Assembly: GCA_050696355.1 (NCBI GenBank)
Contig: JBOGVD010000102.1
Coordinates: forward strand, 1,027 to 65,026
DNA length: 64,000 bases
DNA from: Actinomycetota bacterium
GTDB lineage: Bacteria > Actinomycetota > UBA4738 > HRBIN12
Direction of reading: 5' to 3'
Shown one piece after another: positions 5,454 through 57,391 of this stretch. Position numbers and translations under genes: made by a program. The notes beneath the pieces are model-generated. The model saw only the letters and a list, made by a program, of their open reading frames with translations, ran no database searches and had not been told where the DNA came from. The number at the start of each line of letters is the position of its first letter. The first letter of the stretch is position 1.

Positions 5454-5464
5454 CAGCCGGACGG

Positions 5465-6185
5465 TCAGATCGGCGGCCATCGGTTCACCAAGAACCACCC
5501 GATCAAGGGGATGAAGAGTCGGGTCCATTGCCCCGTGATCATCAGGATCCCCATCAGAACCAGGAGCGCGCCGCCGACGCGCTCGATCGCGCGCCCGTGA
5601 CGGCGCAGCCAACCGAACGCCTTGCCGGCGCGCGTGTACCCGACCGCGAGAAGCACGAACGGGACTCCCAATCCAAGCGAGTACGCGAACAGGAGCCCTG
5701 CGCCGGTCCATGCGGTCTGCGTCGCCGCCGCGGCCGAGAGGATGCCCGCGAGCACGGGGCCGATGCATGGGGTCCACCCGAGCGCGAACGCCATCCCCAA
5801 TGGGACGGCCCCGAGAGGCCCAGCCCTGATCCGGCGGAGGTCGATCCGCGCCTCCCGGTACAGGAAGGGGATGCGCAACAGGCCGAGCGCGACCAGGCCC
5901 ATCACGATGACGAAGACGCCGGGCGATCCCCATGAACACCGGCCGGTTCCGGAGGATCACGCCGCCCAGCGTCGAAGCACCCGCTCCGAGGATCGTGAAG
6001 ACAGTGGCGAAGCCGAGCACGAAGAGGAGCGCGGAGGAGATCACCCGGTTGCGCACCGCCACGGCTGCTGACGGCTCTCGTGCCACGCCGCTCACGTACG
6101 AGAGGTATCCAGGCATCAGGGGCAGGCAGCACGGCGACGTGAACGACACGGCGCCGGCAACGAACGCGAGCGCTATGGCCCCCAC
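5465..6185 (-). pseudogene. ccdA: cytochrome c biogenesis / thiol-reductant transporter CcdA (DsbD family), apparent frameshift
   Basis: The N-terminal half (GTG 6185; MGAIALAFVAGAVSFTSPCCLPLMPGYLSYVSG..) and the C-terminal half (ORF 5465..5905; ..GMAFALGWTPCIGPVLAGIL..) are in different frames. The junction is at the GGG run 5921-5923. Deleting one base restores ..RNRPVFMGIAGVFVIVMGLVALG... Confidence 0.7.
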
Positions 6186-15234: not shown

Positions 15235-15423
15235 TCAACCGCCGTGCGCATGCGGCTGGGCGAGCGACTGACGGAGCTCCTGTCGGAGGCAGCGGTAACA
15301 GATGACGTTCGAGCAGTCGGCGCTCTCGCAGAAGGCGCAGAGGTCGATCAGAGAGCCGCAGCGCGTACAGCGGTGGAGACGCTCGCGGCTCGCCCCTAGA
15401 ACGGCCGGCGACTGATCGGCCAT
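15235..15423 (-). CDS. Cys-rich mini-protein (CxxC..CAFCE..DC..ICYR..PHAHGG), partner of rhodanese-CBS, copy 1
   Basis: ORF 15235..15426. ATG 15423 overlaps the TGA of the upstream gene (TGATG). Paralogue at 37179..37349 with the same Cys spacing and the same PHAHGG C-terminus. Confidence 0.6.
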   Translation of the reverse strand: MADQSPAVLGASRERLHRCTRCGSLIDLCAFCESADCSNVICYRCLRQELRQSLAQPHAHGG

Positions 15424-16142
15424 CACTCCTCCTCGGCCTCGTGACGGTGCCCGTGGAGCTCGAGCGCGGCTCTGACGGCGTCCTCTTTCCTCAGCAGTCC
15501 GATCAATCGCCCATCCGACGAGGTGATCGGGGAGCTTGCCAGGTCATGGTCCATCATGAACCCGGCCAGCTCCTCGATCGGAACGTTGGGCCGGAAGGTG
15601 CTCGGTCCCGGTCGCATGACATGTTCCGCGGGCTCGTCGGCGCTCTCATCCAGCTGTGCCGCGCGCAGGAGCCCGAGGACGATCCGTTCCTCGTTCACCA
15701 CGACACAGGTGTCCCAGCCGGCGGCGTGGACGCGACTGCGGACCTCGCCGATCCGCTCGTCCAGGCGACAGGTGGGCACGTCGGCCCGGGCGACATCCCT
15801 CGCGCTCGGTCTCTCCGCCTTCGTGCCCTCGGTCGGTAGGCCGGCCGCGAGCCAGTCGGCTATCCCATCGACGTAGTCGTACACCTCGGAGAACCCGAGG
15901 CTCTCGAGCCGCCACGCGGCTCGCGGGCTGAGGTCTCAGGCCGAGTCCCAGCAATAGACGAGGATCGGCCGCGATGAGTCGAGCCGTGCCCTCGCCTCGG
16001 TCTCGATCTTCCGGAGCGGCAGGTTGATCGCCCCGGGGAGGTGATCCTCCTCGAATTCCTCCGGGCCAAGCACGTCGACGACCTGAACCCCTCGGTCGAT
16101 CAGCGCTCGGACCTGCGTGCGTTCGTGCACCTCGTGTGCCAT
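15423..16142 (-). CDS. rhodanese-CBS pair fusion protein with in-frame TGA (candidate selenocysteine at codon 69), copy 1
   Basis: ATG 16142 preceded by GGAGG. Track ORFs 15936..16244 and 15423..15884 are in the same frame, separated only by TGA 15936-15938. The reading is ..PILVYCWDSA-TGA-DLSPRAAWRLESLGFSEVYDYVDGIADWLAAGLPTEG (rhodanese completed), followed by two CBS motifs. Confidence 0.55.
15905..15923 (-). promoter_or_regulatory. hairpin 12 nt downstream of the in-frame TGA (candidate bacterial SECIS), copy 1
   Basis: CGAGCCGC-GUG-GCGGCUCG: 8-bp stem with GU in the apical loop. Identical in the paralogue, while flanking codons differ synonymously. Confidence 0.4.
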
Positions 16143-28432: not shown

Positions 28433-31400
28433 ATGAGAGAGTTCGACCGGGCGCAGTTCGGGCCGAACGTCTGGCTCCTCGACGAGCTCTATCGGGACTA
28501 TCTTGCCGACCCGGCATCCGTGAGCGAACCGTGGCGGGAGTTCTTCGAAGACTACCGTCCACGCGGTGACGACAAGCGGGCCGGCGCCGGGCCCGTGCCG
28601 GACCTGCCCGCGCCCGCTCCGGACGCGACGCCGGCGCAACCGGCGCCGGTCGAGGTCGCGGATCCGCAGCCCGCTCCGGGTGGGGAGCCGGAGAAGGGCC
28701 TCCCGCTCGTGGGGGCCGCCGGGGTGATCGCTCGGCGGATGGAGGAGAGTCTCACCGTCCCGACCGCCACCTCGGTTCGAAACGTCCCCGCTCGTCTGCT
28801 GGAGCTCAATCGCACACTTATCAACCGCCACCTCGAGCGCGTGCAGGGTGGACGGGTTTCCTTCACGCATCTGATCGGTTATGCGATCGTGAAGGCGCTG
28901 GTTGCCTTCCCGGGCATGAACCGCTCATTCGCGCTGGTCGACGGGAAGCCGACGGTCATCGAGCACGCACATGTCAACCTCGGGCTCGCCGTCGACGTGA
29001 AGCGCGACGACGGGACGCGGATCCTGCTCGTTCCGAAGATCACGGCCGCCGACGACCTCGAGTTCACGCGGTTCCACGACGCGTACGAGGATCTGATCCG
29101 CAAGGTCCGCACGAACGAGCTGACCCCCGACGACTTCGCGGGAACCACCGTCACGATCACGAACCCTGGCACGATCGGCACCGTCCTGTCCGTGCCCCGG
29201 CTCATGGCCGGGCAGGCCGCGATCGTCGGGATCGGTGCGATCGCCTATCCACCCGAATACCAGGGTGCGGACCAGGACACGCTGACCGAGCTGGGACTGT
29301 CCAAGGTCCTGACGCTCACCAGCACCTACGACCATCGCGTGATCCAGGGTGCCGAGAGCGGCGAGTTCCTCGGTCGGGTGCACGAGCTGCTGATCGGCGA
29401 GCACAACTTCTACGGCGATGTCTTCAGGTCGCTGGAGCTCCCATACCGGCCGATCCACTGGACGGTCGACGAGCGGCCCGCCGAGGACTCCTTGCCGGCT
29501 CGGGAGAAGCAGGCTCGCGTGCTCCAGCTGATCAACAACTACCGGGTGCGCGGGCACCTCATCGCCGACCTGGATCCGCTCGCCACCGTCCCACCGGCCA
29601 CCCACCCGGAACTCGACCCGGCGAACCTGGGCTTCTCCATCTGGGACCTGGACCGCCGATTCGTCACGGGAGGGATCGCGGGAACGCGCGAAGCCACGCT
29701 GAACGAGATCTGGGGGGTGCTCCGCGATGCGTACTGCGGGACCCTCGGCGTCGAGTACATGCACATCCAAGATCCCGACCAGAAGGAGTGGATCCAGGAA
29801 CAGCTGGAACGCGTCGGCGAAGGGGTCACTCCCGACGACCGCCGCCAGATCCTGTTGAAGCTGAGCGAGGCGGAGGCCATCGAACGATTCCTCCATCAGC
29901 GCTACGTGGGACACAAGCGCTTCTCGCTGGAGGGTGCCGAGAGCCTGATCCCGATCCTTGACGCGATCCTCGACCGGGCCGCCGATGCGGAGCTCTCGGA
30001 AACCGTCATGGGCATGGCGCACAGAGGCCGCCTCAACGTGCTGGCGAACATCATCGGGAAGAGCTACCGACAGATCTTCCGCGAGTTCGAGGGCGAGCTG
30101 GACCCGCTCTCCGTCGAAGGATCGGGCGACGTGATCTACCACCTCGGCGCCTCGGGGAAGCACGTGTCCCGGGCCGGGAACGGCATCATCGTGTCGGTCG
30201 CTTCCAACCCCAGCCATCTGGAGTCGGAGGACCCGGTGGTGGAGGGGATGGCCCGGGCGAAGCAGGATCTCATCGACTCGCCTGACGGTGCGCGGGTGTT
30301 GCCCGTGTTGATCCACGGGGAGGCCGCCTTCGCCGGGCAGGGGGTGGTCGCGGAGACGCTGAACCTCTCACAGCTCCCCGGCTATCAGACCGGGGGCACG
30401 ATCCACGTGATCATCAACAATCAGCTCGGGTTCACGACGACACGCGAGCACGGACGCTCGAGTGTGTACGCGAGCGACGTCGCGAAGATGGTGCAGGCGC
30501 CCATCTTCCACGTGAACGGCGACGACCCCGAGACCTGCGTTCGAGCGGCTCGCCTGGCGTTCGCGTTCCGGCAGGAGTTCCGCAAGGACGTGATCGTCGA
30601 CATGTGGTGCTATCGACGCTGGGGCCACAACGAGGCCGACGAACCGTCGTTCACGCAGCCTCTCATGTACCGCCGCATCGGAGAGCTCCGCTCCGTCCGC
30701 AAACGCTACATGGAAGCCCTGGTGAACCGAGGCGATCTCACGACGGAAGACGCCGAGCAGGCGCTCAGGACGTACTCCGACCGTCTTCGCCAGGTGTTCG
30801 AGGAGACCAGGGGGCAGCACGCGGACGTGCCCGCGCTCGAGCGGCGCGAGCCGGAGCCCGTGCCCGAGGCACCCATGCAGACCGGGGTGCTCCGCGCGCG
30901 TCTCGAGGAGGTGGCGGATGCGCTCACCCGAACACCCGATGGATTCGAGATCCACCCGAAGCTTGCACGGATGCTGGAACAGCGCAGGGCGGCGCTCGAC
31001 GAGGATCGGATCGACTGGGCCTTCGCGGAAGCCATGGCATTCGGCACCCTGCTCCTGGATGGGATCACGATCCGGCTCACCGGCCAGGACACCCGGCGCG
31101 GGACGTTCAGCCAGCGCCACGCGGTCCTCGTCGACCAGCAGACGGGCCGGGAACATCTTCCGTTCCAGCACCTGGCCGACCGGCAGGGGAAGGCGTTCAT
31201 CTATGACAGCTTGCTGTCGGAGTTCGCGGCGGTTGGCTTCGAGTACGGGTATTCGGTGGCGGATCCCGGCGCGCTGGTGTTGTGGGAGGCGCAGTTCGGC
31301 GACTTCGTGAACGGCGCACAGGTGATCATCGATCAGTACGTCGTCGCAGCCGAGGAGAAGTGGGGCCAGGAGAGCGGACTGGTGCTCTTGCTCCCCCATG

Positions 31401-32038
31401 GACACGAGGGTCAGGGGCCGGAGCATTCGAGCGCTCGGCTCGAGCGGTTCCTCGACCTCGCCGCGAGGGACAACATCGAGGTGACCGTGCCCTCGACGCC
31501 GGCACAGTACTTCCATCTCCTCCGCCGGCAGGCCTTGCGGAGCGTCAGGAAGCCGCTCGTCGTGATGACGCCGAAGTCGCTCCTTCGGTTGGCCGCTGCC
31601 GCCAGCAACACGCAGGAGCTGGGATCGGGTCACTTCCAACCGGTTCTCCCGGATCCCTCACCGCCGAAGGCAGCGTCTCGCGTCTTGCTCTGCCAGGGGA
31701 AGGTGTTCTTCGAGATCACGGGACAGCGCGCGAAGAGCGGCCGTGAGGATGTCGCCGTGATCCGCGTGGAGCAGTGCTACCCGCTCCCGGTCGATGCCCT
31801 ACGGGAAGAGATCGGACGCTTCCCCGGTGCCGAATTGATCTGGGCACAGGAGGAACCGGAGAACATGGGAGCAGGCCGATACATGCTGCGCGAGCTCCGC
31901 GAGCGTTTGGGTATGGACGCACGGCTGGTGTCGCGGCCGGAGAGCCCGAGTCCCGCAACGGGGAGCCTCACCCTGCACCGGGAGGAACAGTCAGACCTGC
32001 TCGATCGCATGCTCAGCGGCCGACCGCCGGGTAACTGA
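28433..32038 (+). CDS. kgd: multifunctional 2-oxoglutarate metabolism enzyme (Kgd/OdhA type: E2-like acyltransferase domain fused to E1o)
   Basis: 1201 aa, ATG after GGGAGGAAGC. N-terminal FGPNVWLLDELYRDYL, acyltransferase core ..TYDHRVIQGAESGEFL.., E1o/ThDP region ..GMAHRGRLNVLANI.., HGEAAFAGQGVV, YRRWGHNEADEPSFTQP. Confidence 0.95.
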   Translation: MREFDRAQFGPNVWLLDELYRDYLADPASVSEPWREFFEDYRPRGDDKRAGAGPVPDLPAPAPDATPAQPAPVEVADPQPAPGGEPEKGLPLVGAAGVIARRMEESLTVPTATSVRNVPARLLELNRTLINRHLERVQGGRVSFTHLIGYAIVKALVAFPGMNRSFALVDGKPTVIEHAHVNLGLAVDVKRDDGTRILLVPKITAADDLEFTRFHDAYEDLIRKVRTNELTPDDFAGTTVTITNPGTIGTVLSVPRLMAGQAAIVGIGAIAYPPEYQGADQDTLTELGLSKVLTLTSTYDHRVIQGAESGEFLGRVHELLIGEHNFYGDVFRSLELPYRPIHWTVDERPAEDSLPAREKQARVLQLINNYRVRGHLIADLDPLATVPPATHPELDPANLGFSIWDLDRRFVTGGIAGTREATLNEIWGVLRDAYCGTLGVEYMHIQDPDQKEWIQEQLERVGEGVTPDDRRQILLKLSEAEAIERFLHQRYVGHKRFSLEGAESLIPILDAILDRAADAELSETVMGMAHRGRLNVLANIIGKSYRQIFREFEGELDPLSVEGSGDVIYHLGASGKHVSRAGNGIIVSVASNPSHLESEDPVVEGMARAKQDLIDSPDGARVLPVLIHGEAAFAGQGVVAETLNLSQLPGYQTGGTIHVIINNQLGFTTTREHGRSSVYASDVAKMVQAPIFHVNGDDPETCVRAARLAFAFRQEFRKDVIVDMWCYRRWGHNEADEPSFTQPLMYRRIGELRSVRKRYMEALVNRGDLTTEDAEQALRTYSDRLRQVFEETRGQHADVPALERREPEPVPEAPMQTGVLRARLEEVADALTRTPDGFEIHPKLARMLEQRRAALDEDRIDWAFAEAMAFGTLLLDGITIRLTGQDTRRGTFSQRHAVLVDQQTGREHLPFQHLADRQGKAFIYDSLLSEFAAVGFEYGYSVADPGALVLWEAQFGDFVNGAQVIIDQYVVAAEEKWGQESGLVLLLPHGHEGQGPEHSSARLERFLDLAARDNIEVTVPSTPAQYFHLLRRQALRSVRKPLVVMTPKSLLRLAAAASNTQELGSGHFQPVLPDPSPPKAASRVLLCQGKVFFEITGQRAKSGREDVAVIRVEQCYPLPVDALREEIGRFPGAELIWAQEEPENMGAGRYMLRELRERLGMDARLVSRPESPSPATGSLTLHREEQSDLLDRMLSGRPPGN

Positions 32039-32501: not shown

Positions 32502-32873
32502 ATGAGGATCGGAGACATCTATCGCCGCGGGGTGTTCACCGTCCAAGCCTCCGACACACTCGCTCATTGCGCCCGGCGCCTCGAGGTCGCGGCGGTGGGA
32601 GCACTCGGCGTGGTAGAGGGTTCCGACATCGTGGGCATCATCTCGGAGCGCGACCTGGTCCTGGCCCTGTCTCGAAGGGATGATCCCAGGGGCGCGCTCG
32701 TCCGCGAGTTCATGTCGGTTGATCTGTTGACCGCCGACGTGGACGAAGCGGCGCGCGAAGTGGCGCACCGGATGCTTGATGCTGGGATCCGGCACCTGCC
32801 GGTGGCGGAGGAAGGAAACCTCGTGGGGATGGTCTCCATGCGGGACCTGCTCCATCTGGAGACGTGGGGCTAG
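32502..32873 (+). CDS. CBS domain pair protein
   Basis: 123 aa, ATG after GGGGAGGATGAG. Two CBS repeats (..VVEGSDIVGIISERDLV.. and ..VAEEGNLVGMVSMRDLL..). Confidence 0.8.
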   Translation: MRIGDIYRRGVFTVQASDTLAHCARRLEVAAVGALGVVEGSDIVGIISERDLVLALSRRDDPRGALVREFMSVDLLTADVDEAAREVAHRMLDAGIRHLPVAEEGNLVGMVSMRDLLHLETWG

Positions 32874-32877
32874 GCCC

Positions 32878-34026
32878 GTGGACCTCCTGTCCCGGAAGGA
32901 TCTCCAGCGTCTCGCATCCCGCCGACCTGGGAGGTGCGTGTCCCTCTTCGTGCCGACGCATCGGTCCGGCCCGGGCGTCAAGCAGGACCGGATCCGGTGG
33001 AGGAAGCTCCTGGCTGAGACGGAGAAGACGCTTCGCGGCGAAGACGCGCGGAGAACGGAGGCCGAGGATCTCCTTCGACCAGCTCGGGAGCTCCTGGATG
33101 ACGCGCTGTTCTGGCAGTACCAGAGCGACGGCCTGGCCATGTTCATCGGTGCCGGATGGTCGCGCTTCTTCCGCGTCGCCATCCCCCTGCCGGAGCTCGG
33201 GACCGTCGGGCGGCGGTTCGTCGTCGGCCCGCTTCTGCCGCTGCTCGCGGACGGCGGACGCTACTTCGTCCTGGCCTTGAGCCAGAACGAGATCCGGTTA
33301 CTCGAGGGCACGCGCTTCGGCCTGGAGGAGGTCGAGCTCCAAGATCCGCCGCGGAGCCTTCGCGCGATGCTCGCGCGCGAGGAACAGAGGCCGGAAGTGC
33401 ATGGCTTCCTGGCGGACCGTGGCGGCGTGGGCTCTCGGGTCGTGTTCTATGGTCAAGGTGGCGGAGCCGACGTGGGGCGGAAGGAGCAGATCGTCCGCTA
33501 CTTCCGGAAGGTCGATCGCGTGCTCCGCAGCGTCATCAAGGACGATCGCGCTCCGGTCGTCCTGGCAGGCGTCGAGTACCTGCTCCCGCTCTACCGCAGG
33601 GCCAGCGAGCTCCCCCACCTGCTACGGCGGGGGGTCAGGGGTAGCCCGGAAGAGCTATCACCGCACGAGCTGCACGGCCGCGCGTGGAGGCTCGCGGAGC
33701 CCGTCTTCCGACGCCGGGAACGGGAGGCAGCCGCCCGCTATCGACGTCTCCTCGGCACTGGTCTGACCGTGAACGACCCAGAGGCGGCCCTGGAAGCATC
33801 GCGGGCCTCACGCATCGAGGCGCTTTTCCTATCGTCCTCCACGACAACCTGGGAGACCCACGCTTCGAGTCCGGTTGTCCGGCTCGAGGAGGCTGCGCCG
33901 GAGCCGACCTGGCAGGTGCTGGATCTGCTCGCGATCACGACTCTCCGCCGGGGTGGGGATGTGTACGCAGTACCCGATGATCGAGTGCCGGATCGTACCG
34001 GCGTTGCAGGCGTCCTCCGCTTCTAG
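32878..34026 (+). CDS. eRF1-fold 'bacterial archaeo-eukaryotic release factor'-like (baeRF-type) protein, family assignment from memory
   Basis: GTG 32878, 4 nt after the CBS stop. VDLLSRKDLQRLASRRPGRCVSLFVPTHRSGPGVKQDRIRWRKLL.., ..GRYFVLALSQNEIRLLEGTRF.., ..VVFYGQGGGADVGRKEQIVRYFRKVD... Confidence 0.5.
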   Translation: MDLLSRKDLQRLASRRPGRCVSLFVPTHRSGPGVKQDRIRWRKLLAETEKTLRGEDARRTEAEDLLRPARELLDDALFWQYQSDGLAMFIGAGWSRFFRVAIPLPELGTVGRRFVVGPLLPLLADGGRYFVLALSQNEIRLLEGTRFGLEEVELQDPPRSLRAMLAREEQRPEVHGFLADRGGVGSRVVFYGQGGGADVGRKEQIVRYFRKVDRVLRSVIKDDRAPVVLAGVEYLLPLYRRASELPHLLRRGVRGSPEELSPHELHGRAWRLAEPVFRRREREAAARYRRLLGTGLTVNDPEAALEASRASRIEALFLSSSTTTWETHASSPVVRLEEAAPEPTWQVLDLLAITTLRRGGDVYAVPDDRVPDRTGVAGVLRF

Positions 34027-36458: not shown

Positions 36459-37157
36459 ATGCCGCACGAGGTTCACCAGCGGGACGAGGTTCGTGCCCTG
36501 ATCGATCGGGGTGCACAGCTGGTCGACGTGCTGGGCGCGGAGGAGTTCGAGGAAGACCACCTTCCTGGAGCGATCAACCTACCCCTCCGGAAGATCGAGA
36601 CCGAGGCCAGACGGCAGCTCGCTCCGACCCGGCCGATCGTCGTCTACTGCTGGGACTCCGCCTGAGACCTCAGTCCACGAGCCGCGTGGCGGCTCGAGAG
36701 CCTGGGGTACTCGCAGGTCTACGACTACGTCGACGGGAAACTCGACTGGCTCGCGGCCGGTCTTCCGATCGAGGGCACCAGCGCTGAGCGCCCGCGCGCC
36801 GGCGACGTGGCCCGCGGGGACGTACCGACGTGCCGTCTGGACGAGCCGATCGGCGATGTCCGCGATCGCGTCCGTTCGGCCGGATGGGCTGCGTGCGTGG
36901 TCGTGAACGAGGAGCGGGTGGTCCTTGGCTTGCTTCGCGGACCCGAGCTTGACAAGGGACGCGATGAGCCCGCGGAGCAGGTCATGCGGCCCGGCCCCAG
37001 CACGTTCCGCCCGCATGTGCCGATAGCGGAGATGGCGCATTTCATGGTGGACCACAACCTCTCGACCTCACCCATCACCTCGTCGGACGGTCGCTTGATC
37101 GGGCTTCTTCATCGGGAGGACGCGGTCGGCCTCGCACACGGACACGAACCGCGATGA
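36459..37157 (+). CDS. rhodanese-CBS pair fusion protein with in-frame TGA (candidate selenocysteine at codon 69), copy 2
   Basis: ATG 36459 after GGAGGGG. Track ORFs 36459..36665 and 36807..37157 share a frame. TGA at 36663-36665 sits inside ..PIVVYCWDSA-TGA-DLSPRAAWRLESLGYSQVYDYVDGKLDWLAAGLPIEG... The 47 in-frame codons between the TGA and the next ATG/GTG/TTG (36807) are conserved with copy 1. Confidence 0.55.
36678..36696 (+). promoter_or_regulatory. hairpin 12 nt downstream of the in-frame TGA (candidate bacterial SECIS), copy 2
   Basis: CGAGCCGC-GTG-GCGGCTCG, identical to copy 1 (15905-15923, minus strand). Confidence 0.4.
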
Positions 37158-37178: not shown

Positions 37179-37349
37179 GTGACGTCCATGGATCGAGGGG
37201 CCGTGGTTCTCACGTGCACGGGGTGCGGCGTCATCGTCGAGGTCTGCGCCTTCTGCGAGCGAGAGGACTGCCGCGAGACGATCTGCTATCGATCCCTGCG
37301 GATACAGCTTGGGCAGTCCATGGCGCATCCGCACGCCCACGGGGGATGA
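37179..37349 (+). CDS. Cys-rich mini-protein (CxxC..CAFCE..DC..ICYR..PHAHGG), copy 2
   Basis: Not in the ORF track (under 60 aa). GTG 37179 or ATG 37188 after GAGGAGGGA. ..MDRGAVVLTCTGCGVIVEVCAFCEREDCRETICYRSLRIQLGQSMAHPHAHGG*, with TGA at 37347-37349. Confidence 0.55.
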   Translation: MTSMDRGAVVLTCTGCGVIVEVCAFCEREDCRETICYRSLRIQLGQSMAHPHAHGG

Positions 37350-38300: not shown

Positions 38301-40937
38301 CTACCGCATGCTCCCGAGCTGGTCCAGCGTGACTCGAGCGACCCGCCTGCCTCGCGCCCGAAGAGCATGAAGGTCCCCGAGGGCCTGCGCATCGATCAGC
38401 TCGCCGAAGGTGTAGGGCGCGCCGGGGATGGGGACGTCGGCGTCGCGCGTGCGATCGACAACCTGAACGAACACCCCGGTGTCTGGCCCACCTTTGTGAA
38501 GCTGCCCGGTCGAGTGAAGGAACCGTGGCCCGAACCCCACGGTCACGGCGACCTTGTGCCGGTCGCGGATCGCGAAGCGCGCGCGCTGGAGGATCTGCAC
38601 GGTCTCGACCGTCGCGTCGAGGTATGCCTGGATCGCGACATAGTCGCGTGGTTCGAGCGTACGCAGCAGATCCCCGAGGTCATCGAACCCGTCGTTCGGG
38701 ACGGGATCGGATCCGAGGATCTGCTTGGCGGCGCGCTTCGCCTCTTCCACGTTCGGCTGATCGAACGGGTGGATGCCGAGCACGTTTCCGGCCACCGCGG
38801 TCGCGAATTCCCAGCGGAAGAACTCGGAGCCGAGTGAGACGGGGCCGTCTGCGATGCGGACGACCGGGTGCCCAGTCGCTTCGAGTCCCTCGAGCCCGCT
38901 GTGCTCGCCGTAGGAGACGAACAGCCTGTCGGGACCGTAGACATCTGGTCGGCCGACGTCCTCTCCAATGACCGGGACGATCCCCTTGCCGTCCTTGCCG
39001 GTGGACTCGGCGATGAGCTGCTCTACCCAGTCACCGAAGCTCTCGAGCTCCGGGGGCAGGACCAGGGTGAGCTTGTCCCGGCCGCTCGTCTCCGCTTCGC
39101 CCAGGACGGCGCCGAGCCACGCACCGGGGTTCTCCCCGCTCGGCACGCAGTCATGGCATGCGCATGCCATCCCCTCGGCGCCCTCGAGCAGCGCCCCGAG
39201 GTCGGCGCCGATGAGCGACGCCGGGACGACCCCGAAGAGCGAGAGGGCCGAATAGCGTCCGCCGATGTCGGGCGGGTTGAGGAACACACGTCGGAAGTCG
39301 CGCTCGCGGGCAAGCACCTCGAGCGGCGTACCAGGATCGGTGATGGCCACGAACTGGCCGCCCCGCCGGCCCGTTCGCTCGAAGAAGTAGGCGAGGTGGG
39401 ACAGGGTCTCGGTCGTCCCGCCCGATTTGCTCGCAACGACGAAGAGCGTTCGCGCGAGATCGAGCGATCCCTCGATACGCGCGACCGTGACGGGGTGTGT
39501 CGTGTCGAGGACGATCAGGTCGAGGAAGCCGTCGCGCACCCCGAGGGTGCGGCGGATCACCTCGGGCGCGAGGCTCGATCCGCCCATCCCGAGGAGAACC
39601 GCGGTGCGGAAGCCCTCGCCGGCGACCTCCCTCGCGAACGCCTCGATCTCATCCACCCGCTCGCGCATGAGATCCGAGACGCCGAGCCATCCCAAGCGGG
39701 AGGTGATCTCGGCGGGATCGGGTCGCCAGACGGTGTGGTCCTTCCGCCAGATCCTCGCGACGACGTCCTCATGATCGAGCTGAGCCAAACGATCCTCGAC
39801 GTCGTGGGAGAGTGAACCGAGCATCGCCGTCACGCGCGCACGTCCGGCTCGGACCTCCTCGAGCTTCCCCTCGATCACACCGAGCAGCTTCTCGAGGTCT
39901 GCCTGGAACGCGCGAAGCCCGTCCTCCACGAGCCCTTGGGTGATCGCGTCCAGGTCGATGCCGTGCTCGGGGAGGAGCGACAAGATCGCCTCGGCCTCCT
40001 CGATCCCTTCGGAGACCGATCGCGGGCGCACGACACCGTGATCACGGAACGCGTTGAGCGTCGCCTCCGGGATCGTGTTCACGGTGTCGGGGCCGATCAG
40101 CTCCTCCACGTAGAGCACATCTGAGTAGTCGGGATCCTTCGTGCCGGTCGATGCCCACAGGGGTCGCTGCACCCGCGCGCCGGTGGACATGAGGCGGTGC
40201 CAGCGTTCTCCCGAGAAGAGATGACCGAAACGGTGGTATGCACGCTTGGCATTGGCGATCGCGACCTTGCCACGGAGCGGCGATCCCTCGGGAAGCTCCC
40301 TATCAGCCACCGTATCGACCCGCGAGACGAAGAACGACGCCACGGAGACGACGTGGTCCACCGGCTCCCCCGCATCGAGTCGTCGCTCGAGGCCGCGGAT
40401 GTAGGCCCGGGCGACCTGCTCGTACATCTCGACAGAGAACAGGAGCGTGATGTTCACGCTGACGCCGATCGCGGTGAGCTCCTCGACCGCCGGTACGCCT
40501 TCGTCGGTCCCGGGAACCTTGATCATGACGTTCGGCTTCCCGATGCGCTCGAAGAGCGAGCGAGCGGCCTCGACGGAGCCGTCGGTGTCATGCGCGAGCC
40601 GCGGTTCGAGCTCGAAGGACACCAACCCATCGGCGCCACGTGTCTCTTGATAAACGGGGAGGAAGACGTCTGCCGCCATCTGGACGTCGGCGAGCGCGAG
40701 ATCATAGAAGACCTCGATCGCGTTCCGCCCGTCCTTCTCGGCGATCGCACGGATCGCCTCGTCGTAGTCGGTGGAGCTCCCGATCGCCTTCCCGAAGATG
40801 CTCGGATTGGAGGTCAGCCCGCTCACGCCATCCTCGCGGACGAGTCGCTCCAGTCCGCCTCCGGTGATGAGGCTCCGCCGCAGGAAGTCCAGCCAGACAC
40901 CCTGCCCCGCCTCGCGGAGCTGGAGGAGCGGATTCAT
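38301..40937 (-). CDS. bifunctional transaldolase / glucose-6-phosphate isomerase
   Basis: 878 aa. N-terminal transaldolase (..GVSGLTSNPSIFGKAI.., ..VMIKVPGT..) fused to PGI (..LGMGGSSLAPEV.., ..VVASKSGGTTETL..). Confidence 0.93.
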   Translation of the reverse strand: MNPLLQLREAGQGVWLDFLRRSLITGGGLERLVREDGVSGLTSNPSIFGKAIGSSTDYDEAIRAIAEKDGRNAIEVFYDLALADVQMAADVFLPVYQETRGADGLVSFELEPRLAHDTDGSVEAARSLFERIGKPNVMIKVPGTDEGVPAVEELTAIGVSVNITLLFSVEMYEQVARAYIRGLERRLDAGEPVDHVVSVASFFVSRVDTVADRELPEGSPLRGKVAIANAKRAYHRFGHLFSGERWHRLMSTGARVQRPLWASTGTKDPDYSDVLYVEELIGPDTVNTIPEATLNAFRDHGVVRPRSVSEGIEEAEAILSLLPEHGIDLDAITQGLVEDGLRAFQADLEKLLGVIEGKLEEVRAGRARVTAMLGSLSHDVEDRLAQLDHEDVVARIWRKDHTVWRPDPAEITSRLGWLGVSDLMRERVDEIEAFAREVAGEGFRTAVLLGMGGSSLAPEVIRRTLGVRDGFLDLIVLDTTHPVTVARIEGSLDLARTLFVVASKSGGTTETLSHLAYFFERTGRRGGQFVAITDPGTPLEVLARERDFRRVFLNPPDIGGRYSALSLFGVVPASLIGADLGALLEGAEGMACACHDCVPSGENPGAWLGAVLGEAETSGRDKLTLVLPPELESFGDWVEQLIAESTGKDGKGIVPVIGEDVGRPDVYGPDRLFVSYGEHSGLEGLEATGHPVVRIADGPVSLGSEFFRWEFATAVAGNVLGIHPFDQPNVEEAKRAAKQILGSDPVPNDGFDDLGDLLRTLEPRDYVAIQAYLDATVETVQILQRARFAIRDRHKVAVTVGFGPRFLHSTGQLHKGGPDTGVFVQVVDRTRDADVPIPGAPYTFGELIDAQALGDLHALRARGRRVARVTLDQLGSMR

Positions 40938-53274: not shown

Positions 53275-54045
53275 CTACACAGCAGGCAGCGTGCGTGCGT
53301 GCGTCCTCGCGGTTGGACGGGATGCCGTCGTCTCGAGCCCCAGGGCCACCACCCGACCAACCACGAGCGTGGCCGGCGGGCCGACGCTCGCCCGCTCGGC
53401 GAGGGTCGGTAGGTCAGCCAGCACCCCGACGACCGAGCGTTGATCTCGCGTCCACGCCCACTGGACGATCGCGGCTGGCTCCTCGGCTGGGCGGCCGGAA
53501 GCGATGAGGCCGGCGCACGTCTCCGCGAGGCGGCCCGCGGCCATCAGCACGACGATCGTGTCGGCGCCGGCGACGTGAGCGAGATCCACCTCGGCGTCGT
53601 GGGCCGTCGAACCCGTCACGACCGCGAAGGATCGAGCAACGCCGCGGTGCGTGACCGGGATGCCCAGGGCAGCGGGGGCGGCGACGGCCGCCGACACGCC
53701 CGGGACCACCTCGCACGGGATCCCGGCGGCGGCACAACCCGTGAGCTCTTCGCCGCCCCGTCCGAAGACGAATGGATCTCCGCCCTTCAGCCGAACCACG
53801 ACGGAGCCACCGAGGGCACGGTCGACCAGCAGCCGCTCGATCTCTCGCTGCGGGACGGCGGCGGTTCCCGGCTCCTTGCCCACGTAGATCCGCTCGGCCC
53901 TCGCCGGCGCCAGGTCGAGGAGGGCGGGCGCGACGAGCCGGTCGAACACCACCACGTCCGCCGCGACCAGCGCGCGGGCGCCGCGGACGGTGATGAGGCC
54001 GGGGTCGCCGGGACCCGCGCCGACGAGGACGACCCGCCCCGTCAT
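53275..54045 (-). CDS. cobA: uroporphyrinogen-III C-methyltransferase (SUMT)
   Basis: ATG 54045 overlaps the upstream stop (ATGA). VVLVGAGPGDPGLITVRG, LKGGDPFVFGRGGEE. Confidence 0.85.
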   Translation of the reverse strand: MTGRVVLVGAGPGDPGLITVRGARALVAADVVVFDRLVAPALLDLAPARAERIYVGKEPGTAAVPQREIERLLVDRALGGSVVVRLKGGDPFVFGRGGEELTGCAAAGIPCEVVPGVSAAVAAPAALGIPVTHRGVARSFAVVTGSTAHDAEVDLAHVAGADTIVVLMAAGRLAETCAGLIASGRPAEEPAAIVQWAWTRDQRSVVGVLADLPTLAERASVGPPATLVVGRVVALGLETTASRPTARTHARTLPAV

Positions 54046-54686
54046 GGGGAGGCCACCTCGCCGAGGAGCCGCCCTCGGAGCGTCGCCCGCAGGTCGTCGC
54101 CGCGTCCCTCCCGGACCAGCCGGACCGCCTCCTCCGAATCGAGTGCCTCTCGCCACCGCCGCGCGCGATCGGCCAGACCCGGAAGCGCGGGGAGCGTCTC
54201 CCGGCGCACCTCGCCGACGATGCGCAGGATCTCCGCCCACTCCGGCCCGAACCCGTCCCGGAGCTCCTCGCGGACGAGCCGCGCGACCGCGGGTGAGACC
54301 CCACCGGTTCCGACCGCCAGGACGAGATCCCCCCGGCGAACGATCGCCGGCGCCGCCCAGTCGCACCCAGGGACGTCGTCGATGACGTTGACGAGCCCGC
54401 CGCGGCGCCGGGCCTCCCGGGCGATCGCGGCTCGCTCGGTCGCGTCGTCGGAGGAGGCGACGAGGAGGAAGGCTCCGTCGAGGTCATCGGGTCGCCACGC
54501 GCGCCGCTCGGTCCGCACACCGGCGACGCCACCGAACCGGCCATCCAGGCTCGGCTCGATCACCGAGACGTCGTCCGCACCGCCCGCGAGCAACCCCTCG
54601 ACCTTGCCCTCGCGGATGGCTTGAGCGCCGATCACGACGCAGCGCCGGCCGCCGAGCTCGAGCATCGCCGGGAAGCCGAAGCTCAT
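54042..54686 (-). CDS. precorrin-2 dehydrogenase / sirohydrochlorin ferrochelatase (CysG N-terminal / Met8-like)
   Basis: ATG 54686 overlaps the cysH stop (ATGA). ..LELGGRRCVVIGAQAIREGKVEGLLAGGA.. Rossmann fold, ..LVNVIDDVPGCDWAAPAIV... Confidence 0.75.
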   Translation of the reverse strand: MSFGFPAMLELGGRRCVVIGAQAIREGKVEGLLAGGADDVSVIEPSLDGRFGGVAGVRTERRAWRPDDLDGAFLLVASSDDATERAAIAREARRRGGLVNVIDDVPGCDWAAPAIVRRGDLVLAVGTGGVSPAVARLVREELRDGFGPEWAEILRIVGEVRRETLPALPGLADRARRWREALDSEEAVRLVREGRGDDLRATLRGRLLGEVASP

Positions 54687-55543
54687 CCGGCAGCCCCCTG
54701 TCGCTCGCGGCCATCGACGTCGCGCATCGCCGCCGCGCGTTCGCGATCGGTCGCGGAGCCGAGCAGTCCCACCGAGCCATGGATCCCGCACTCCTTGTCA
54801 GTCTCCTGCTCCCACCACCAGCGGCCGGCGCGCTCGGGCTCGCCCGGAGCGACGGCCCGCGTGCACGGCGCGCGACCGACCGACGTGTAGCCCTGATCGA
54901 ACAGCGCGTGGGAGGGGACGTCGTGTTCGTGGACGTAGTCCCACACGCGATCGAGGGTCCAGTCGGCCACCGGGTTCAGCTTCACGATCCCGCCGTGATC
55001 GCGGTCGAGCTCCACCTTGGCGATGTTCCTGCGGCTGCGCCATCGTTCACGCCGCAGGCCCGCGACCCATGCATCGAGCGTGGAGAGCTTCCGCTTCAGG
55101 GGCTCCACCTTCCTGATCTCGCAGCACCGGAGGCGGCGATCGAAGCCGCCGAACATCAGGTTTGGACCGTGGTCGGTCACCACGGCGGCGACGGCGTCCG
55201 TCTCGGGGTATTCGAACTCGACCGCGATCCCGTACCGCTCGCGGACGCGTTCGAACAGCGCGTAGGTCTCGGCCGGCAGCCGGCCGGTGTCCAGGGTGAA
55301 GACACGCACGTCAGAGCGCAGGCGCAACGCGATGTCGATCAGCACCATCCCGTCGACGCCTCCTGCCGCGCTGATCGCGAGACGCGGATGGAACCGCTCG
55401 AGCGCCCAGGCGAGGAGGTACTCGGCCTCGGCGTCCTCGAATCGCTCCGCGGCCCGTGCGATCCATAGCTCCTCCTCGTCGAACAGCGGCAGGATGGGCT
55501 GGTGGAGCGGCGGACGGGGTCCCGGTCGCCCATCAGGACGCAC
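54683..55543 (-). CDS. cysH: adenylyl-/phosphoadenylyl-sulfate reductase (thioredoxin-dependent)
   Basis: ORF 54683..55636, probable GTG 55543. ..VFTLDTGRLPAETY.., ..RLRCCEIRKVEPL.., ..KECGIHG... Start uncertain. Confidence 0.85.
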   Translation of the reverse strand: MRPDGRPGPRPPLHQPILPLFDEEELWIARAAERFEDAEAEYLLAWALERFHPRLAISAAGGVDGMVLIDIALRLRSDVRVFTLDTGRLPAETYALFERVRERYGIAVEFEYPETDAVAAVVTDHGPNLMFGGFDRRLRCCEIRKVEPLKRKLSTLDAWVAGLRRERWRSRRNIAKVELDRDHGGIVKLNPVADWTLDRVWDYVHEHDVPSHALFDQGYTSVGRAPCTRAVAPGEPERAGRWWWEQETDKECGIHGSVGLLGSATDRERAAAMRDVDGRERQGAAG

Positions 55544-55682
55544 TCCCCACAGCGAGGAGCCGGAGCTCGAAGATCCGTTCGCAGCTCTCGCACCGCCAGC
55601 CGGATGGGTCGGCGGGCCGCAGGTCCTGCTCGCCACAGAACGGGCAATAGAACGGGACGGCCCGCGGCGTCGGGACGCTCAT
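55533..55682 (-). CDS. 49-aa zinc-ribbon protein between sulfite reductase and cysH
   Basis: Not in the track (under 60 aa). ATG 55682 overlaps the sirA stop (ATGA). MSVPTPRAVPFYCPFCGEQDLRPADPSGWRCESCERIFELRLLAVGSAS*. A small ORF in this position is recalled from actinobacterial sulfate-assimilation operons. Confidence 0.5.
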   Translation of the reverse strand: MSVPTPRAVPFYCPFCGEQDLRPADPSGWRCESCERIFELRLLAVGSAS

Positions 55683-57391
55683 CGGCCTCGGTCCGGGGTC
55701 GCGAACGCGGTGAGCTCGTCATCGTCCAGCCCTCGCACGAACGCCGAGAAGCTGGGACTCGCGGGGCCTCGTCTCGATCGGTAGCGCCGGATCAGCGCCT
55801 CGACGTAGTCGGCGGCGTCCTCGCCGAGGACGCGGACGCCCTTCACCTTCCTGCCGAAGGAGCCCTCATCGTCGCTCCCCTCCCCCATGGCTCCACCGAG
55901 GTGGACGAGGAACGCATCCGACCTCGTGCCGTCGGGACGTTTCGCGAGCGCCGACATCAGGCCGATGTCGGCGACCTGGAAGCGCGCGCAGGAGTTCGGG
56001 CAGCCGTTCACGTGCACGCGGATCTCCTCGCCGAACCCCGGCAGGCGGCGATCCAGCTCCTCGGCGAGCCAGCGGGCCCGACCCTTCGTTTCGCCGATCG
56101 CGAGCTTGCAGAACTCGATCCCCGTGCACGCCATCACGCCCTTGCGGAACGGGCTCGGCGAGGAGGGGAGGTCCAGATCGTCCAACCGTGCTGCCAGCTC
56201 GGGCGCCGCAGCCGGCTCCACGTCGACGATCACGAACTTCTGCCGGGAGGTGGTACGGATCCGCCCTCTGCCGAACCGGTCGGCGAGGTCGGCCACCAGC
56301 CGCAGCTGATGGCCGCTCACACGTCCGGCCCTCGGCGCGAAGCCGACGTAGGCACGTCCGTCGATCTGGCGGTGCACGCCCACGTGATCGCGGAGGGGCA
56401 TCGGTGCCGGCGCCGGAGCCGGGCCGTCGGGGAGCCGCGAGTCGAGGAACTCCTCCTCGAGCACACGGCGGAACGCGTCGGCGCCCCAGTCCCTCACCAG
56501 GAACTTCAGCCGGGAGCGATTGCGGGAGCGCCGATACCCGTACTCGCGGAAGAGCGACGTCACCGCCCGCCACGCTTCGGCGGTGCGCTCGGGTTCCACG
56601 AACGCGCCGAGTCGCTGCGCGAACATCGGGTTCGTGGACAGCCCGCCCCCGACCCACAGGTCGTAGCCCGGACCGAGGGCCGGGTGGTCGACGCCGACGA
56701 AGGAGACGTCGTTGATCTCCGGGTCCGTGCAGCGAACGGCGCAGCCGCTGATGGAGGACTTGTACTTGCGCGGCAGGTTCGAGAACTCGGTCGTGCCCAC
56801 GAATCGGTCGCGGATCTCGGCGATCGCGCCGGAGCCGTCCAGGACCTCGTCGGCGTCGATCCCGGCGAGCGGGCACCCGAGGATCACGCGCGGGGTGTCC
56901 CCGCAGGCCTCCGCCGTCGTGAGGCCCGTGGATTCGAGCCTCTCCCAGATCGCCGGCACGTCCTCGATCCGGATCCAATGGAGCTGCACGTTCTGGCGGT
57001 CCGTCACGTCGGCGAGGTCGCGGCCGTGGGTCTCGCTCGCCCACGCGATCGCCCGGAGCTGTTCGGCGGTCAGTCGGCCGCCGTCGATCCGGATCCGCAT
57101 CATGAAGAACTCGTCCTCGAGCTCCTCCGGCTCGGCGCTGCCGGTCCGCTCCCCGGGAAGCCCCTGCTTGCGCTGGGTGTAGAGCCCCCACCAGCGCATC
57201 CGATTGCGCAGGTCCTGCTTGCCGATCGAGCGGAACCCACCCGGCGCGAAGATCCGCTCGATGCGCTCGCGTACCTCGAGCGGCTCGGCCTCCTTCTTGA
57301 TCTGTTCTGCGCTGTTCAGCGGTTCGCGGTAGGCGAGCGCCCACTGCCCCTGACCCGTGGGTCGGGGAGCCGCGCGTTGGATGGATGCCAT
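55679..57391 (-). CDS. sirA: ferredoxin-dependent sulfite reductase (NirA/SirA type)
   Basis: 570 aa of the nitrite/sulfite reductase family. ..ACTGIEFCKLA.. and ..VNGCPNSCARFQVADIG.. siroheme/4Fe-4S Cys motifs. Confidence 0.9.
   Translation of the reverse strand: MASIQRAAPRPTGQGQWALAYREPLNSAEQIKKEAEPLEVRERIERIFAPGGFRSIGKQDLRNRMRWWGLYTQRKQGLPGERTGSAEPEELEDEFFMMRIRIDGGRLTAEQLRAIAWASETHGRDLADVTDRQNVQLHWIRIEDVPAIWERLESTGLTTAEACGDTPRVILGCPLAGIDADEVLDGSGAIAEIRDRFVGTTEFSNLPRKYKSSISGCAVRCTDPEINDVSFVGVDHPALGPGYDLWVGGGLSTNPMFAQRLGAFVEPERTAEAWRAVTSLFREYGYRRSRNRSRLKFLVRDWGADAFRRVLEEEFLDSRLPDGPAPAPAPMPLRDHVGVHRQIDGRAYVGFAPRAGRVSGHQLRLVADLADRFGRGRIRTTSRQKFVIVDVEPAAAPELAARLDDLDLPSSPSPFRKGVMACTGIEFCKLAIGETKGRARWLAEELDRRLPGFGEEIRVHVNGCPNSCARFQVADIGLMSALAKRPDGTRSDAFLVHLGGAMGEGSDDEGSFGRKVKGVRVLGEDAADYVEALIRRYRSRRGPASPSFSAFVRGLDDDELTAFATPDRGR

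What the first reader, a model, noticed from the sequence alone, without database searches (positions are those of the whole stretch)
36459..37157. Second copy keeps the same in-frame TGA; differences between the copies argue for translation through it
Copy 2 has TGA at the identical codon (69; 36663-36665) in ..RPIVVYCWDSA-TGA-DLSPRAAWRLESLGYSQVYDYVDG...

I compared the 24 codons after the TGA between the copies and counted 8 codon differences. Six are synonymous (AGC/AGT, CCG/CCA, CTC/CTG, TCC/TCG, GTG/GTC, GAT/GAC). Two are conservative (F/Y, E/Q).

In copy 2 there is no in-frame ATG/GTG/TTG between the TGA and 36807. The GTG that could restart copy 1 is GTC here. So 47 conserved codons have no way to be translated except by decoding the TGA.

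By eye, divergence looks similar upstream and downstream of the TGA. Within the stretch compared, the hairpin codons (CGA GCC GCG TGG CGG CTC GAG) show no change, while the two codons just 5' of it differ synonymously. Both genes also end with a normal TGA, so TGA is not a general sense codon.
Basis: seen in the sequence. Interest (0 to 1): 0.85.

Follow-up and report, generated by a model that had tools for sequence, protein, structure and literature searches.

The report
Selenocysteine rhodanese-CBS gene, second copy
The in-frame TGA in this gene is almost certainly read as selenocysteine: it marks one of two copies of a widespread soil-bacterial rhodanese-CBS selenoprotein that the databases searched here annotate only as a truncated "CBS domain" protein.

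Summary
Gene 36459-37157(+) and its paralogue 16142-15423(-) both carry TGA at codon 69, inside a single rhodanese fold that is followed by a CBS pair.

- dN/dS between the copies is 0.10 before and 0.145 after the TGA, with dS about 1.
- 157 of 160 related loci fetched from genomes and metagenomes (Actinomycetota, Dormibacterota, Rokubacteria, Chloroflexota) have TGA at the same codon. All 155 complete ones stay open for at least 153 codons afterwards.
- Full-length homologues have Cys exactly there (YCWDxxC/U-DLSPRAAW).
- A hairpin, GAGCCGC-GUG-GCGGCUC, starts 13 nt after the UGA and meets all four published bacterial SECIS criteria.
- Its synonymous sites are 98-100% fixed in 148 unique sequences. 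Neighbouring third positions vary freely, and two of four Cys forms with the same peptide have drifted.
- One relative (L014) has a selD gene with its own in-frame TGA 1.5 kb away.

Sec machinery could not be checked in the source genome, because none lies in the window.

A small seven-Cys ORF follows both copies and about 70% of Sec-form loci, but none of eight Cys-form loci.

Verdict: a real selenoprotein gene and a new member of a known kind. No catalogue entry I could check fits it.

The parts
36459..37157 (+). Copy 2 of the rhodanese-CBS selenoprotein gene (232 codons plus terminal TGA). A GGAGG sits about 9 nt upstream of the ATG.
   Evidence: Searches give the sequence and translation. 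Pfam Rhodanese covers aa 9-99 and so spans the TGA (55.3 bits against a cut-off of 22.2); Pfam CBS covers aa 173-223. Orthologues were found in 160 loci.
36663..36665 (+). In-frame TGA at codon 69, the predicted selenocysteine codon. It lies 5 residues after the canonical rhodanese catalytic Cys64 (motif C-W-D-S-A-U).
   Evidence: It aligns with Cys in 32 full-length homologues. 157 of 160 related loci have TGA here. Cys64 aligns with the catalytic Cys of solved rhodaneses.
36678..36696 (+). SECIS-like hairpin CGAGCCGC-GUG-GCGGCUCG, starting 12-13 nt after the UGA. The apical loop lies 20 nt from the UGA.
   Evidence: The hairpin folds at -14 kcal/mol. The stem pairs in 147-148 of 148 unique sequences. 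Third-codon positions inside it are 98-100% fixed. All four bSECIS criteria from PMC13188914 are met.
37179..37349 (+). Small Cys-rich ORF of 56 aa directly downstream. The family consensus is CxxCGxxIxxCAFCxxPDCxxxICYxCL...QPHxHGG.
   Evidence: One search lists the ORF. tblastn finds it right after the selenoprotein stop in more than 100 loci. It follows 102 of 146 Sec-form loci and 0 of 8 Cys-form loci. It matches no Pfam or NCBIfam family.
15423..16142 (-). Copy 1 of the same gene (239 codons plus TGA). It is 76% identical to copy 2 at both the protein and the DNA level.
15936..15938 (-). In-frame TGA (codon 69) of copy 1.
15905..15923 (-). The identical SECIS-like hairpin of copy 1.
15235..15426 (-). 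Small Cys-rich ORF of 63 aa downstream of copy 1. Its GTG start overlaps the TGA stop of copy 1 (GTGA), which suggests translational coupling.

Best explanation
36459-37157 encodes one 232-residue cytoplasmic protein: an N-terminal rhodanese-like domain followed by a C-terminal CBS pair. UGA at codon 69 is decoded as selenocysteine.

Inferred decoding mechanism: a 17-19-nt GC-rich hairpin with a GUG apical loop lies 12-13 nt downstream, within the coding sequence. It would recruit SelB carrying Sec-tRNA(Sec) to the ribosome, as in standard bacterial Sec insertion. The terminal UGA has no such hairpin and terminates normally.

Inferred chemistry: the Sec sits at the last position of an extended active-site loop, just before the helix, five residues after the canonical catalytic Cys (C-x4-U). 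The two residues most likely form a redox-active selenenylsulfide or persulfide-relay pair. The CBS pair probably makes activity respond to an adenine-nucleotide ligand. The co-transcribed small seven-Cys protein is the likely partner or substrate.

Shown here: the UGA is conserved; it pairs with Cys in homologues; selection acts on both sides of it; and the hairpin is constrained at the RNA level. Inferred, not shown: SelB dependence, Sec chemistry, CBS regulation and the role of the partner.
For: 1. One fold: Pfam Rhodanese spans aa 9-99 across the TGA. An AlphaFold2 model of the Cys homologue P0001 has pLDDT 95.3 and pTM 0.86, with strand 59-62, loop C63..C68 and helix 70-80.
2. Sec/Cys pair: 32 full-length homologues have Cys at the aligned column. 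The solved structure BH2092 (3NHV) has YCWGPAC there.
3. Conservation of the TGA: 78 of 80 species-level genome loci and 79 of 80 metagenome loci have it. All 155 complete loci stay open for 153-325 codons after it, and 137 of them end in an ordinary TGA.
4. Selection: dN/dS is 0.10 before and 0.145 after the TGA, with dS about 1.
5. No restart: copy 2 has no in-frame start codon before codon 117.
6. SECIS: the stem pairs in 147-148 of 148 unique sequences. Codon usage is GCC 147/148, GCG 148/148, CGG 147/148 and CTC 145/148 with 3 CTT. The Arg codon at +5 is never CGC or CGT. Flanking Ser, Pro, Gly and Val codons vary freely.
7. The loop pattern C-GUG-G, the 7-8 bp stem, the 20-nt spacing and -14 kcal/mol satisfy the bSECIS model.
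8. Cys-form control: of four Cys forms with the same RAAWRL peptide, two use other synonymous codons and lose the hairpin. Four more changed the Trp or one of the Ala residues of RAAWRL.
9. Sec trait in the clade: L014 encodes SelD with an in-frame TGA at the known Sec/Cys site (SHGAG*ACK), 1.5 kb from the orthologue.
10. TGA is the commonest normal stop in the window.
Against: - No selA, selB, selD or tRNA-Sec gene lies in the 64-kb window, and no tRNA-Sec lies in the flanks of the first 80 loci. Whether the source genome has the Sec trait is therefore unverified.
- The stem shows no compensatory covariation, because every synonymous stem position pairs with a fixed non-synonymous position. 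The RNA argument rests on frozen synonymous sites.
- The 148 sequences are phylogenetically related.
- Rfam has no matching family.
- Only 8 Cys-form DNA sequences were available as a control, and two of them retain the hairpin.
- There is no experimental evidence of selenium incorporation.
Confidence: 0.88

Rival explanations
1. The UGA is read through, but not as Sec. A near-cognate or suppressor tRNA inserts Trp, Cys or Gly, and the downstream hairpin acts as a generic read-through stimulator.
For: No Sec machinery was found in the window or in most flanks. JGI pipelines translated 13 family members with Trp at the site.
Against: - The one 'W' call whose DNA could be read is TGA, mistranslated under code 4.
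- TGA is the main ordinary stop in the window and ends 137 of 155 family genes.
- The aligned residue in homologues is Cys, in a redox-type C-x4-C loop.
- The hairpin fits the SelB-type bSECIS model in loop sequence and spacing.
- A selD gene with its own in-frame TGA sits next to the orthologue in L014.
Confidence: 0.06
2. It is a split gene. Translation stops at codon 69 to give a 68-residue peptide, and the CBS part is made separately from an internal start.
For: Gene callers annotate the downstream part as a 150-175-aa 'CBS domain-containing protein'. Copy 1 has a GTG at codon 87.
Against: - Copy 2 has no in-frame start until codon 117, yet codons 70-116 are under purifying selection with dN/dS 0.21.
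- The TGA cuts the rhodanese fold between its central strand and its active-site helix.
- The frame is preserved across the TGA in all 155 complete loci.
Confidence: 0.03
3. It is a pseudogene, or a duplicated dead gene, or the TGA is a sequencing error.
For: There is an internal stop codon, and the public annotations are truncated.
Against: - dN/dS is 0.10-0.15 on both sides, with dS about 1.
- The flanks of the two copies are unrelated.
- The same TGA appears in 157 independent assemblies from several phyla, with intact downstream frames.
Confidence: 0.01

Closest known systems
Rhodanese-like selenoproteins, forms 1-5 in the 2026 catalogue (PMC13188914): UxxS (Geobacter WP_010941598.1), UxxG (two forms), CxU (NF041203) and UxxxxU (TsoB, NF045694)
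   Same: All have a rhodanese homology domain with Sec in or at the active-site loop, encoded by UGA with a downstream bacterial SECIS. TsoB has the same five-residue spacing (U-x4-U) where this family has C-x4-U, and its model gives a weak rhodanese-domain match (E 4.8e-8).
   Different: - This family scores far below the cut-offs of both dedicated models: 31.5 bits against 805 for TsoB, and 20.4 against 115 for NF041203.
- It keeps the canonical Cys and places Sec at +5.
- It carries a C-terminal CBS pair and a conserved small Cys-rich downstream gene.
- It occurs in soil Actinomycetota, Dormibacterota, Rokubacteria and Chloroflexota.
- No paper in the searchable library combines selenoprotein, rhodanese and CBS domain.
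BH2092 of Bacillus halodurans (PDB 3NHV/3O3W), a structural-genomics rhodanese with the loop YCWGPACNGATKAA
   Same: It is the closest solved rhodanese domain by sequence (E 1.1e-11) and by fold (30-31% identity, rmsd 1.6-1.8 Å). It has the same extended loop with two Cys five residues apart, and the second Cys aligns with the Sec.
   Different: It has Cys rather than Sec, no CBS pair, and no known function.
Escherichia coli fdhF-type bacterial SECIS and SelB recoding (bSECIS consensus of Zhang and Gladyshev 2005, as summarised in PMC13188914)
   Same: It is a hairpin inside the ORF immediately 3' of the UGA. The apical loop carries G then U in its first positions, the UGA-to-loop spacing falls within 16-37 nt, and the stem is stable.
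   Different: The sequence is unrelated to fdhF. The loop is only 3 nt (or 5 with the C-G closing pair opened). No conserved lower stem or bulged U was detected.
CBS-pair (Bateman) regulatory modules such as AcuB, the MgtE cytosolic domain and CBSX1/2
   Same: The C-terminal half superposes on these nucleotide-binding CBS pairs (Foldseek E about 2e-9, rmsd 1.6-2.4 Å), and Pfam CBS matches.
   Different: No solved structure in the top 50 Foldseek matches covered both domains. Ligand binding was not tested.

Membership tests
Bacterial selenoprotein gene (SelB/SECIS-dependent UGA recoding) | In-frame UGA conserved among orthologues, with an intact reading frame downstream | tested here: met
   157 of 160 loci have TGA at the codon. 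All 155 complete loci have 153-325 open codons after it.
Bacterial selenoprotein gene (SelB/SECIS-dependent UGA recoding) | Cys-containing homologues with Cys aligned to the UGA | tested here: met
   32 of the top 120 homologues have Cys at the column, and 50 of the top 150 representatives at 50% identity do. The Cys-form DNA is TGC or TGT.
Bacterial selenoprotein gene (SelB/SECIS-dependent UGA recoding) | bSECIS: 3-9-nt apical loop, 4-16-bp stem, G in the first two loop positions, 16-37 nt from the UGA, MFE at or below -7.5 kcal/mol | tested here: met
   The loop is GUG (C-GUG-G), the stem is 7-8 bp, the spacing is 20 nt and the MFE is -11.6 to -14 kcal/mol. Synonymous sites in the stem and loop are 98-100% fixed.
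Bacterial selenoprotein gene (SelB/SECIS-dependent UGA recoding) | selA, selB, selC (tRNA-Sec) and selD present in the same genome | tested here: inconclusive
   None lies in the 64-kb window, and no tRNA-Sec lies in the flanks of L001-L080. A selD with its own in-frame TGA sits 1.5 kb from the orthologue in L014. The rest of the source genome could not be reached.
Bacterial selenoprotein gene (SelB/SECIS-dependent UGA recoding) | Selenium demonstrably incorporated at the UGA position | not testable with these tools
   This needs 75Se labelling or mass spectrometry.
Rhodanese homology domain (PF00581) | Domain match above the curated cut-off, with the catalytic Cys at the start of the active-site loop | tested here: met
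   The score is 55.3 bits against a cut-off of 22.2, over aa 9-99. Cys64 aligns with the catalytic Cys of 3TP9 and 1YT8 and follows the central strand in the model.
Rhodanese selenoprotein form 3 (NF041203, CxU) | Score above the NCBIfam cut-off | tested here: not met
   The score is 20.4 bits against a cut-off of 115. The motif here is C-x4-U.
TsoB rhodanese/DsbD-fusion selenoprotein (NF045694, UxxxxU) | Score above the NCBIfam cut-off, two Sec residues, and a DsbD-like fusion | tested here: not met
   The score is 31.5 bits against a cut-off of 805. There is one Sec, and the C-terminal domain is a CBS pair rather than DsbD.
Rhodanese selenoprotein forms 1, 2 and 4 (PF00581 only; UxxS and UxxG) | Sequence identity with the catalogue exemplars (WP_010941598.1, MBM9537886.1, MCY3690685.1) | not tested
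   The exemplar sequences were not obtainable with these tools. The catalogue motifs do not mention a preceding Cys or a CBS domain, and 'CBS' occurs nowhere in the review. U-D-L-S does formally fit 'UxxS', so form 1 cannot be excluded.
CBS pair (PF00571, Bateman module) | Two tandem CBS motifs that fold as a pair | tested here: met
   Pfam CBS scores 51 bits over aa 173-223. In the model, residues 113-228 superpose on the CBS pairs of AcuB, MgtE and CBSX.

The most novel reading that the evidence does not exclude
This may be a selenoprotein family that is not yet catalogued.
- It is a rhodanese with a C-x4-U loop fused to a CBS pair.
- It is usually co-transcribed with a dedicated small seven-Cys, two-His protein.
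- It is unusual in that Sec forms far outnumber Cys forms among close relatives: 157 against 2 in the scans.
- It is spread across soil Actinomycetota, Dormibacterota, Rokubacteria/Methylomirabilota and Chloroflexota, with an almost invariant 17-nt SECIS.

If so, it would be one of the commonest selenoproteins of soil bacteria, and public annotation would be truncating it systematically.
Probability: 0.45. Interest if true: 0.6.

Novelty: new member of a known kind. Interest (0 to 1): 0.5.

Why it matters
- **Annotation.** Among the database members examined here, those with TGA at the site are either called as roughly 160-aa 'CBS domain' or 'MgtE' fragments, or translated with Trp at the site. 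None of the 270 top hits carries U. A family model would correct these calls, and the family numbers at least 451 clusters at 50% identity with E at or below 1e-30.
- **Ecology.** It points to selenocysteine use, and so to a selenium requirement, in abundant soil lineages where little is known about selenoproteins.
- **Biochemistry.** A C-x4-U rhodanese loop under CBS control, with a dedicated Cys-rich partner, is a tractable system for asking what Sec adds to sulfur-transfer or redox chemistry.
- **SECIS evolution.** The nearly invariant SECIS embedded in the conserved RAAWRLE codons shows how RNA and protein constraints can lock each other in place.

Tried and rejected
- **tRNA-Sec.** ARAGORN found none in the window or in L001-L080.
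- **Rfam.** No relevant family, either at gathering scores over the whole window or at E up to 10 over 36600-36800, where only chance miRNA hits appeared.
- **Pfam on about 40 window genes.** No SelA, SelB or SelD.
- **tblastn for Sec machinery.** I used E. coli SelA, SelB and SelD sequences recalled from memory, as a lead only. The single hit, in L014, was then verified by Pfam and by translation. Searching again with the L014 SelD found nothing more.
- **Source contig.** An exact-protein look-up was not on record.
- **Gene neighbourhood.** Clustering pieces of 70 aa or more found no neighbour shared by more than 9 loci. The small ORF was missed by that length threshold and was found later.
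- **Other selenoprotein genes in the window.** The scan returned only the two copies plus antisense artefacts.
- **The hairpin motif elsewhere.** Only chance matches appeared. The L045 case follows an ordinary stop codon.
- **Lower-stem or covariation signal.** RNAalifold found none.
- **SelD SECIS in L014.** Comparison with this hairpin was inconclusive.
- **Data not obtainable.** DNA for the 'W' form P0010 was unavailable. Haft and Tolstoy 2025 is not held.
- **Readings rejected.** Pseudogene, split gene and code-4 reassignment; see the rival explanations.

Full report
**1. Observation**

The sequence is exactly as described. Gene 36459-37157(+) translates to 232 residues with one internal TGA at 36663-36665, codon 69, in RPIVVYCWDSA*DLSPRAAWRLESLGY. 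The paralogue 16142-15423(-) has TGA at the same codon.

There are eight differences in codons 70-93, six synonymous and two conservative. The seven hairpin codons do not differ.

In copy 2 the first in-frame start after the TGA is the GTG at 36807. Codon 87 is GTG in copy 1 and GTC in copy 2.

Both genes end in TGA. TGA also ends most of the roughly 53 genes I called in the window, so it is not a general sense codon.

**2. The proposed selection test**

The two proteins align without gaps for 225 codons. Nei-Gojobori estimates:

| Codons | dN/dS |
|---|---|
| 1-68 | 0.10 |
| 70-225 | 0.145 |
| 70-116 (the stretch with no possible restart) | 0.21 |
| 117-225 | 0.12 |

Overall dS is about 1.07, so the duplication is old.

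DNA similarity between the copies runs only from 14 nt upstream of the start to about 190 nt past the stop, at 73% identity. The wider flanks are unrelated. Each copy is about as far from the other (76%) as from the best orthologues in other genomes (78-80%). The idea of a recent duplicate of a dead gene is refuted.

**3. What the protein is**

Pfam places a Rhodanese domain at residues 9-99, so it spans the TGA. A CBS domain lies at 173-223.

An AlphaFold2 model of the Cys homologue P0001 is confident (pLDDT 95.3, pTM 0.86). It shows a rhodanese fold followed by a CBS pair. The critical loop, C63-W-D-T-V-C68-D, sits between the central strand (59-62) and the following helix (70-80).

Alignments to solved rhodaneses put Cys64 of the window protein on the canonical catalytic Cys. 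The closest structure, BH2092 (3NHV), has YCWGPAC, with its second Cys aligned to the TGA. The C-terminal half superposes on nucleotide-binding CBS pairs such as AcuB, MgtE and CBSX.

**4. Homologues and the Sec/Cys pair**

A protein search returned two classes:
- Full-length proteins of about 230 aa, 32 of them with Cys at the aligned column.
- 73 proteins of about 150-175 aa, with higher identity, that begin just after the site. Many start at [L/M]SPRAAW. These are gene-caller truncations.

Thirteen 'Trp' forms also appeared. The one whose DNA could be read (P0048, L167) is TGA, mistranslated under code 4.

A profile search of 1.84 billion cluster representatives found 451 clusters with E at or below 1e-30. 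Of the top 150, about 50 are Cys-type, 3 are Ser-type and about 70 are truncated just after the site. None carries U.

**5. Conservation of the TGA**

A scan of one genome per species returned 80 loci from Actinomycetota, Dormibacterota, Rokubacteria/Methylomirabilota, Chloroflexota and others. Of these, 78 have TGA, one has TGC and one has CGA.

A metagenome scan seeded with Cys forms still returned TGA in 79 of 80 loci.

All 155 complete TGA loci remain open for 153-325 codons after the TGA, and 137 of them terminate at an ordinary TGA.

**6. The hairpin**

Counting the U of UGA as position 0, positions +16 to +32 form G-R-G-C-C-G-[C-GUG-G]-C-G-G-C-U-C. The stem pairs in 147-148 of 148 unique sequences.

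Every synonymous stem position pairs with a fixed non-synonymous one, so covariation is impossible. The synonymous sites are frozen instead:

| Codon after the TGA | Usage in 148 unique sequences |
|---|---|
| Ala +6 | GCC 147 |
| Ala +7 | GCG 148 |
| Arg +9 | CGG 147 |
| Leu +10 | CTC 145, CTT 3 (keeps a G-U pair) |
| Arg +5 | third base only A or G, pairing with U31; never CGC or CGT |

In the same sequences the neighbouring Ser, Pro, Gly and Val codons use three to five synonymous codons freely.

The eight Cys forms with readable DNA give this control:
- Two of the four that keep the RAAWRL peptide use other codons (GCG GCC, and GCT GCT..CGC) and lose the hairpin.
- Four others changed the Trp or one of the Ala residues of RAAWRL.
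- Two (L081, L166) keep the hairpin intact, which looks like a fossil of a recent Sec-to-Cys switch.

The hairpin folds at -11.6 to -14 kcal/mol. It meets all four criteria of the published bSECIS model: loop size, G then U in the loop, 20-nt spacing and stability. RNAalifold found no conserved lower stem. Rfam has no matching family.

**7. Sec machinery**

None lies in the window, and no tRNA-Sec lies in the flanks of L001-L080. The source contig is not on record.

One positive result came from a tblastn lead, verified afterwards by Pfam and translation. In L014, an Actinomycetota MAG, a selD gene lies 1.5 kb from the orthologue. It has its own in-frame TGA at the classical Sec/Cys site, MASVRLTQYSHGAG*ACK. 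This shows the Sec trait in at least that lineage.

For the window's own organism, this defining feature remains untested.

**8. A conserved partner gene**

Both copies are followed by a small ORF: 37179-37349(+), 56 aa, and 15426-15235(-), 63 aa. The second has a GTG start that overlaps the TGA stop of copy 1.

The ORF lies directly after the selenoprotein stop in 102 of 146 Sec-form loci with enough downstream sequence, and in 0 of 8 Cys-form loci.

Its consensus is CxxCGxxIxxCAFCxxPDCxxxICYxCLxxALxQxxxxPHxHGG, with seven near-invariant Cys. It has no Pfam or NCBIfam family, and database homologues are all 'hypothetical protein'.

No other neighbour is conserved.

**9. Mechanism**

Best explanation, confidence about 0.88: standard SelB/SECIS-directed Sec insertion at codon 69 yields a rhodanese whose canonical Cys64 and Sec69 form a C-x4-U redox or persulfide-relay pair. 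The CBS pair regulates it, and it acts with or on the small Cys-rich protein. The recoding part is strongly supported. The chemistry is inference.

Rivals:
- Non-Sec read-through (0.06).
- Split gene (0.03).
- Pseudogene or sequencing error (0.01).

**10. Comparison with known families, and novelty**

Rhodanese-family selenoproteins are established. The 2026 catalogue lists five forms. This protein fails the two forms that have dedicated NCBIfam models: 20.4 bits against 115 for NF041203, and 31.5 against 805 for TsoB.

The catalogue does not mention CBS. No paper in the library combines selenoprotein, rhodanese and CBS domain. Identity with forms 1, 2 or 4 could not be checked by sequence, and U-D-L-S formally fits the 'UxxS' motif of form 1.

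I therefore file it as a new member of a known kind. Interest is 0.5. The recoding mechanism is ordinary. The family's abundance, the dominance of Sec forms over Cys forms, the near-invariant SECIS across phyla, the systematic misannotation and the dedicated partner gene make it worth reporting.

Noticed in passing
window 37179-37349 (+) and 15235-15426 (-); also downstream of the gene in more than 100 of L001-L160: A small ORF of 56-63 aa follows both copies and about 70% of Sec-form loci, but none of 8 Cys-form loci. It has seven near-invariant Cys and a C-terminal PHxHGG. It has no Pfam or NCBIfam family. In copy 1 its start overlaps the upstream stop (GTGA).
   Followed up: yes
L014 7429-8490 (-): A selD homologue (AIRS and AIRS_C domains, 43% identical to E. 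coli SelD as recalled from memory) has an in-frame TGA at the known Sec/Cys position (SHGAG*ACK). It lies 1.5 kb from the rhodanese-CBS orthologue in an Actinomycetota MAG.
   Followed up: partly
window 32502-32873 (+) and 32878-34026 (+): A stand-alone CBS-pair protein is immediately followed by a bacterial archaeo-eukaryotic release-factor-like protein (baeRF_family3, E 4e-40), about 2.5 kb upstream of copy 2. No link to the UGA recoding was found, and this is not a conserved neighbour in other loci.
   Followed up: no
L167 (P0048) and 12 other 'W' proteins among P0001-P0120: JGI gene calls give Trp at the Sec position. The one whose DNA could be read has TGA, so these look like code-4 mistranslations rather than real Trp variants.
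   Followed up: partly
L081 and L166 (Cys forms): Two TGC (Cys) forms keep the complete GCC GCG TGG CGG CTC hairpin. This looks like a fossil SECIS left by a recent Sec-to-Cys conversion.
   Followed up: partly
L047 (site codon CGA) and L048 10760-10762: One locus has CGA (Arg) in place of TGA but keeps the hairpin intact. Another has an in-frame TAG inside the small Cys-rich ORF. Either could be decay or an assembly error.
   Followed up: no
window 343-6185 (-): A copper-handling cluster: a P-type ATPase with N-terminal cupredoxin-like and HMA domains and a C-terminal YHS domain, followed by a large CopC/CopD fusion protein.
   Followed up: no
window 53275-57391 (-): A sulfate-assimilation cluster: sirohaem synthase parts (TP_methylase, NAD_binding_7), a PAPS/APS reductase and a sulfite reductase (NIR_SIR).
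   Followed up: no
window 28433-32038 (+) and 38301-40937 (-): Two fusion enzymes: a 2-oxoglutarate dehydrogenase E1 with an N-terminal E2 acyltransferase domain (from my own knowledge, an actinobacterial OdhA/Kgd-type architecture) and a transaldolase-phosphoglucose isomerase fusion. The first fits the Actinomycetota origin suggested by the closest loci.
   Followed up: no
L013 and L029 (same MAG, DASWJF01): Another MAG also carries two copies of the Sec-form gene, so two paralogues per genome may be common.
   Followed up: no
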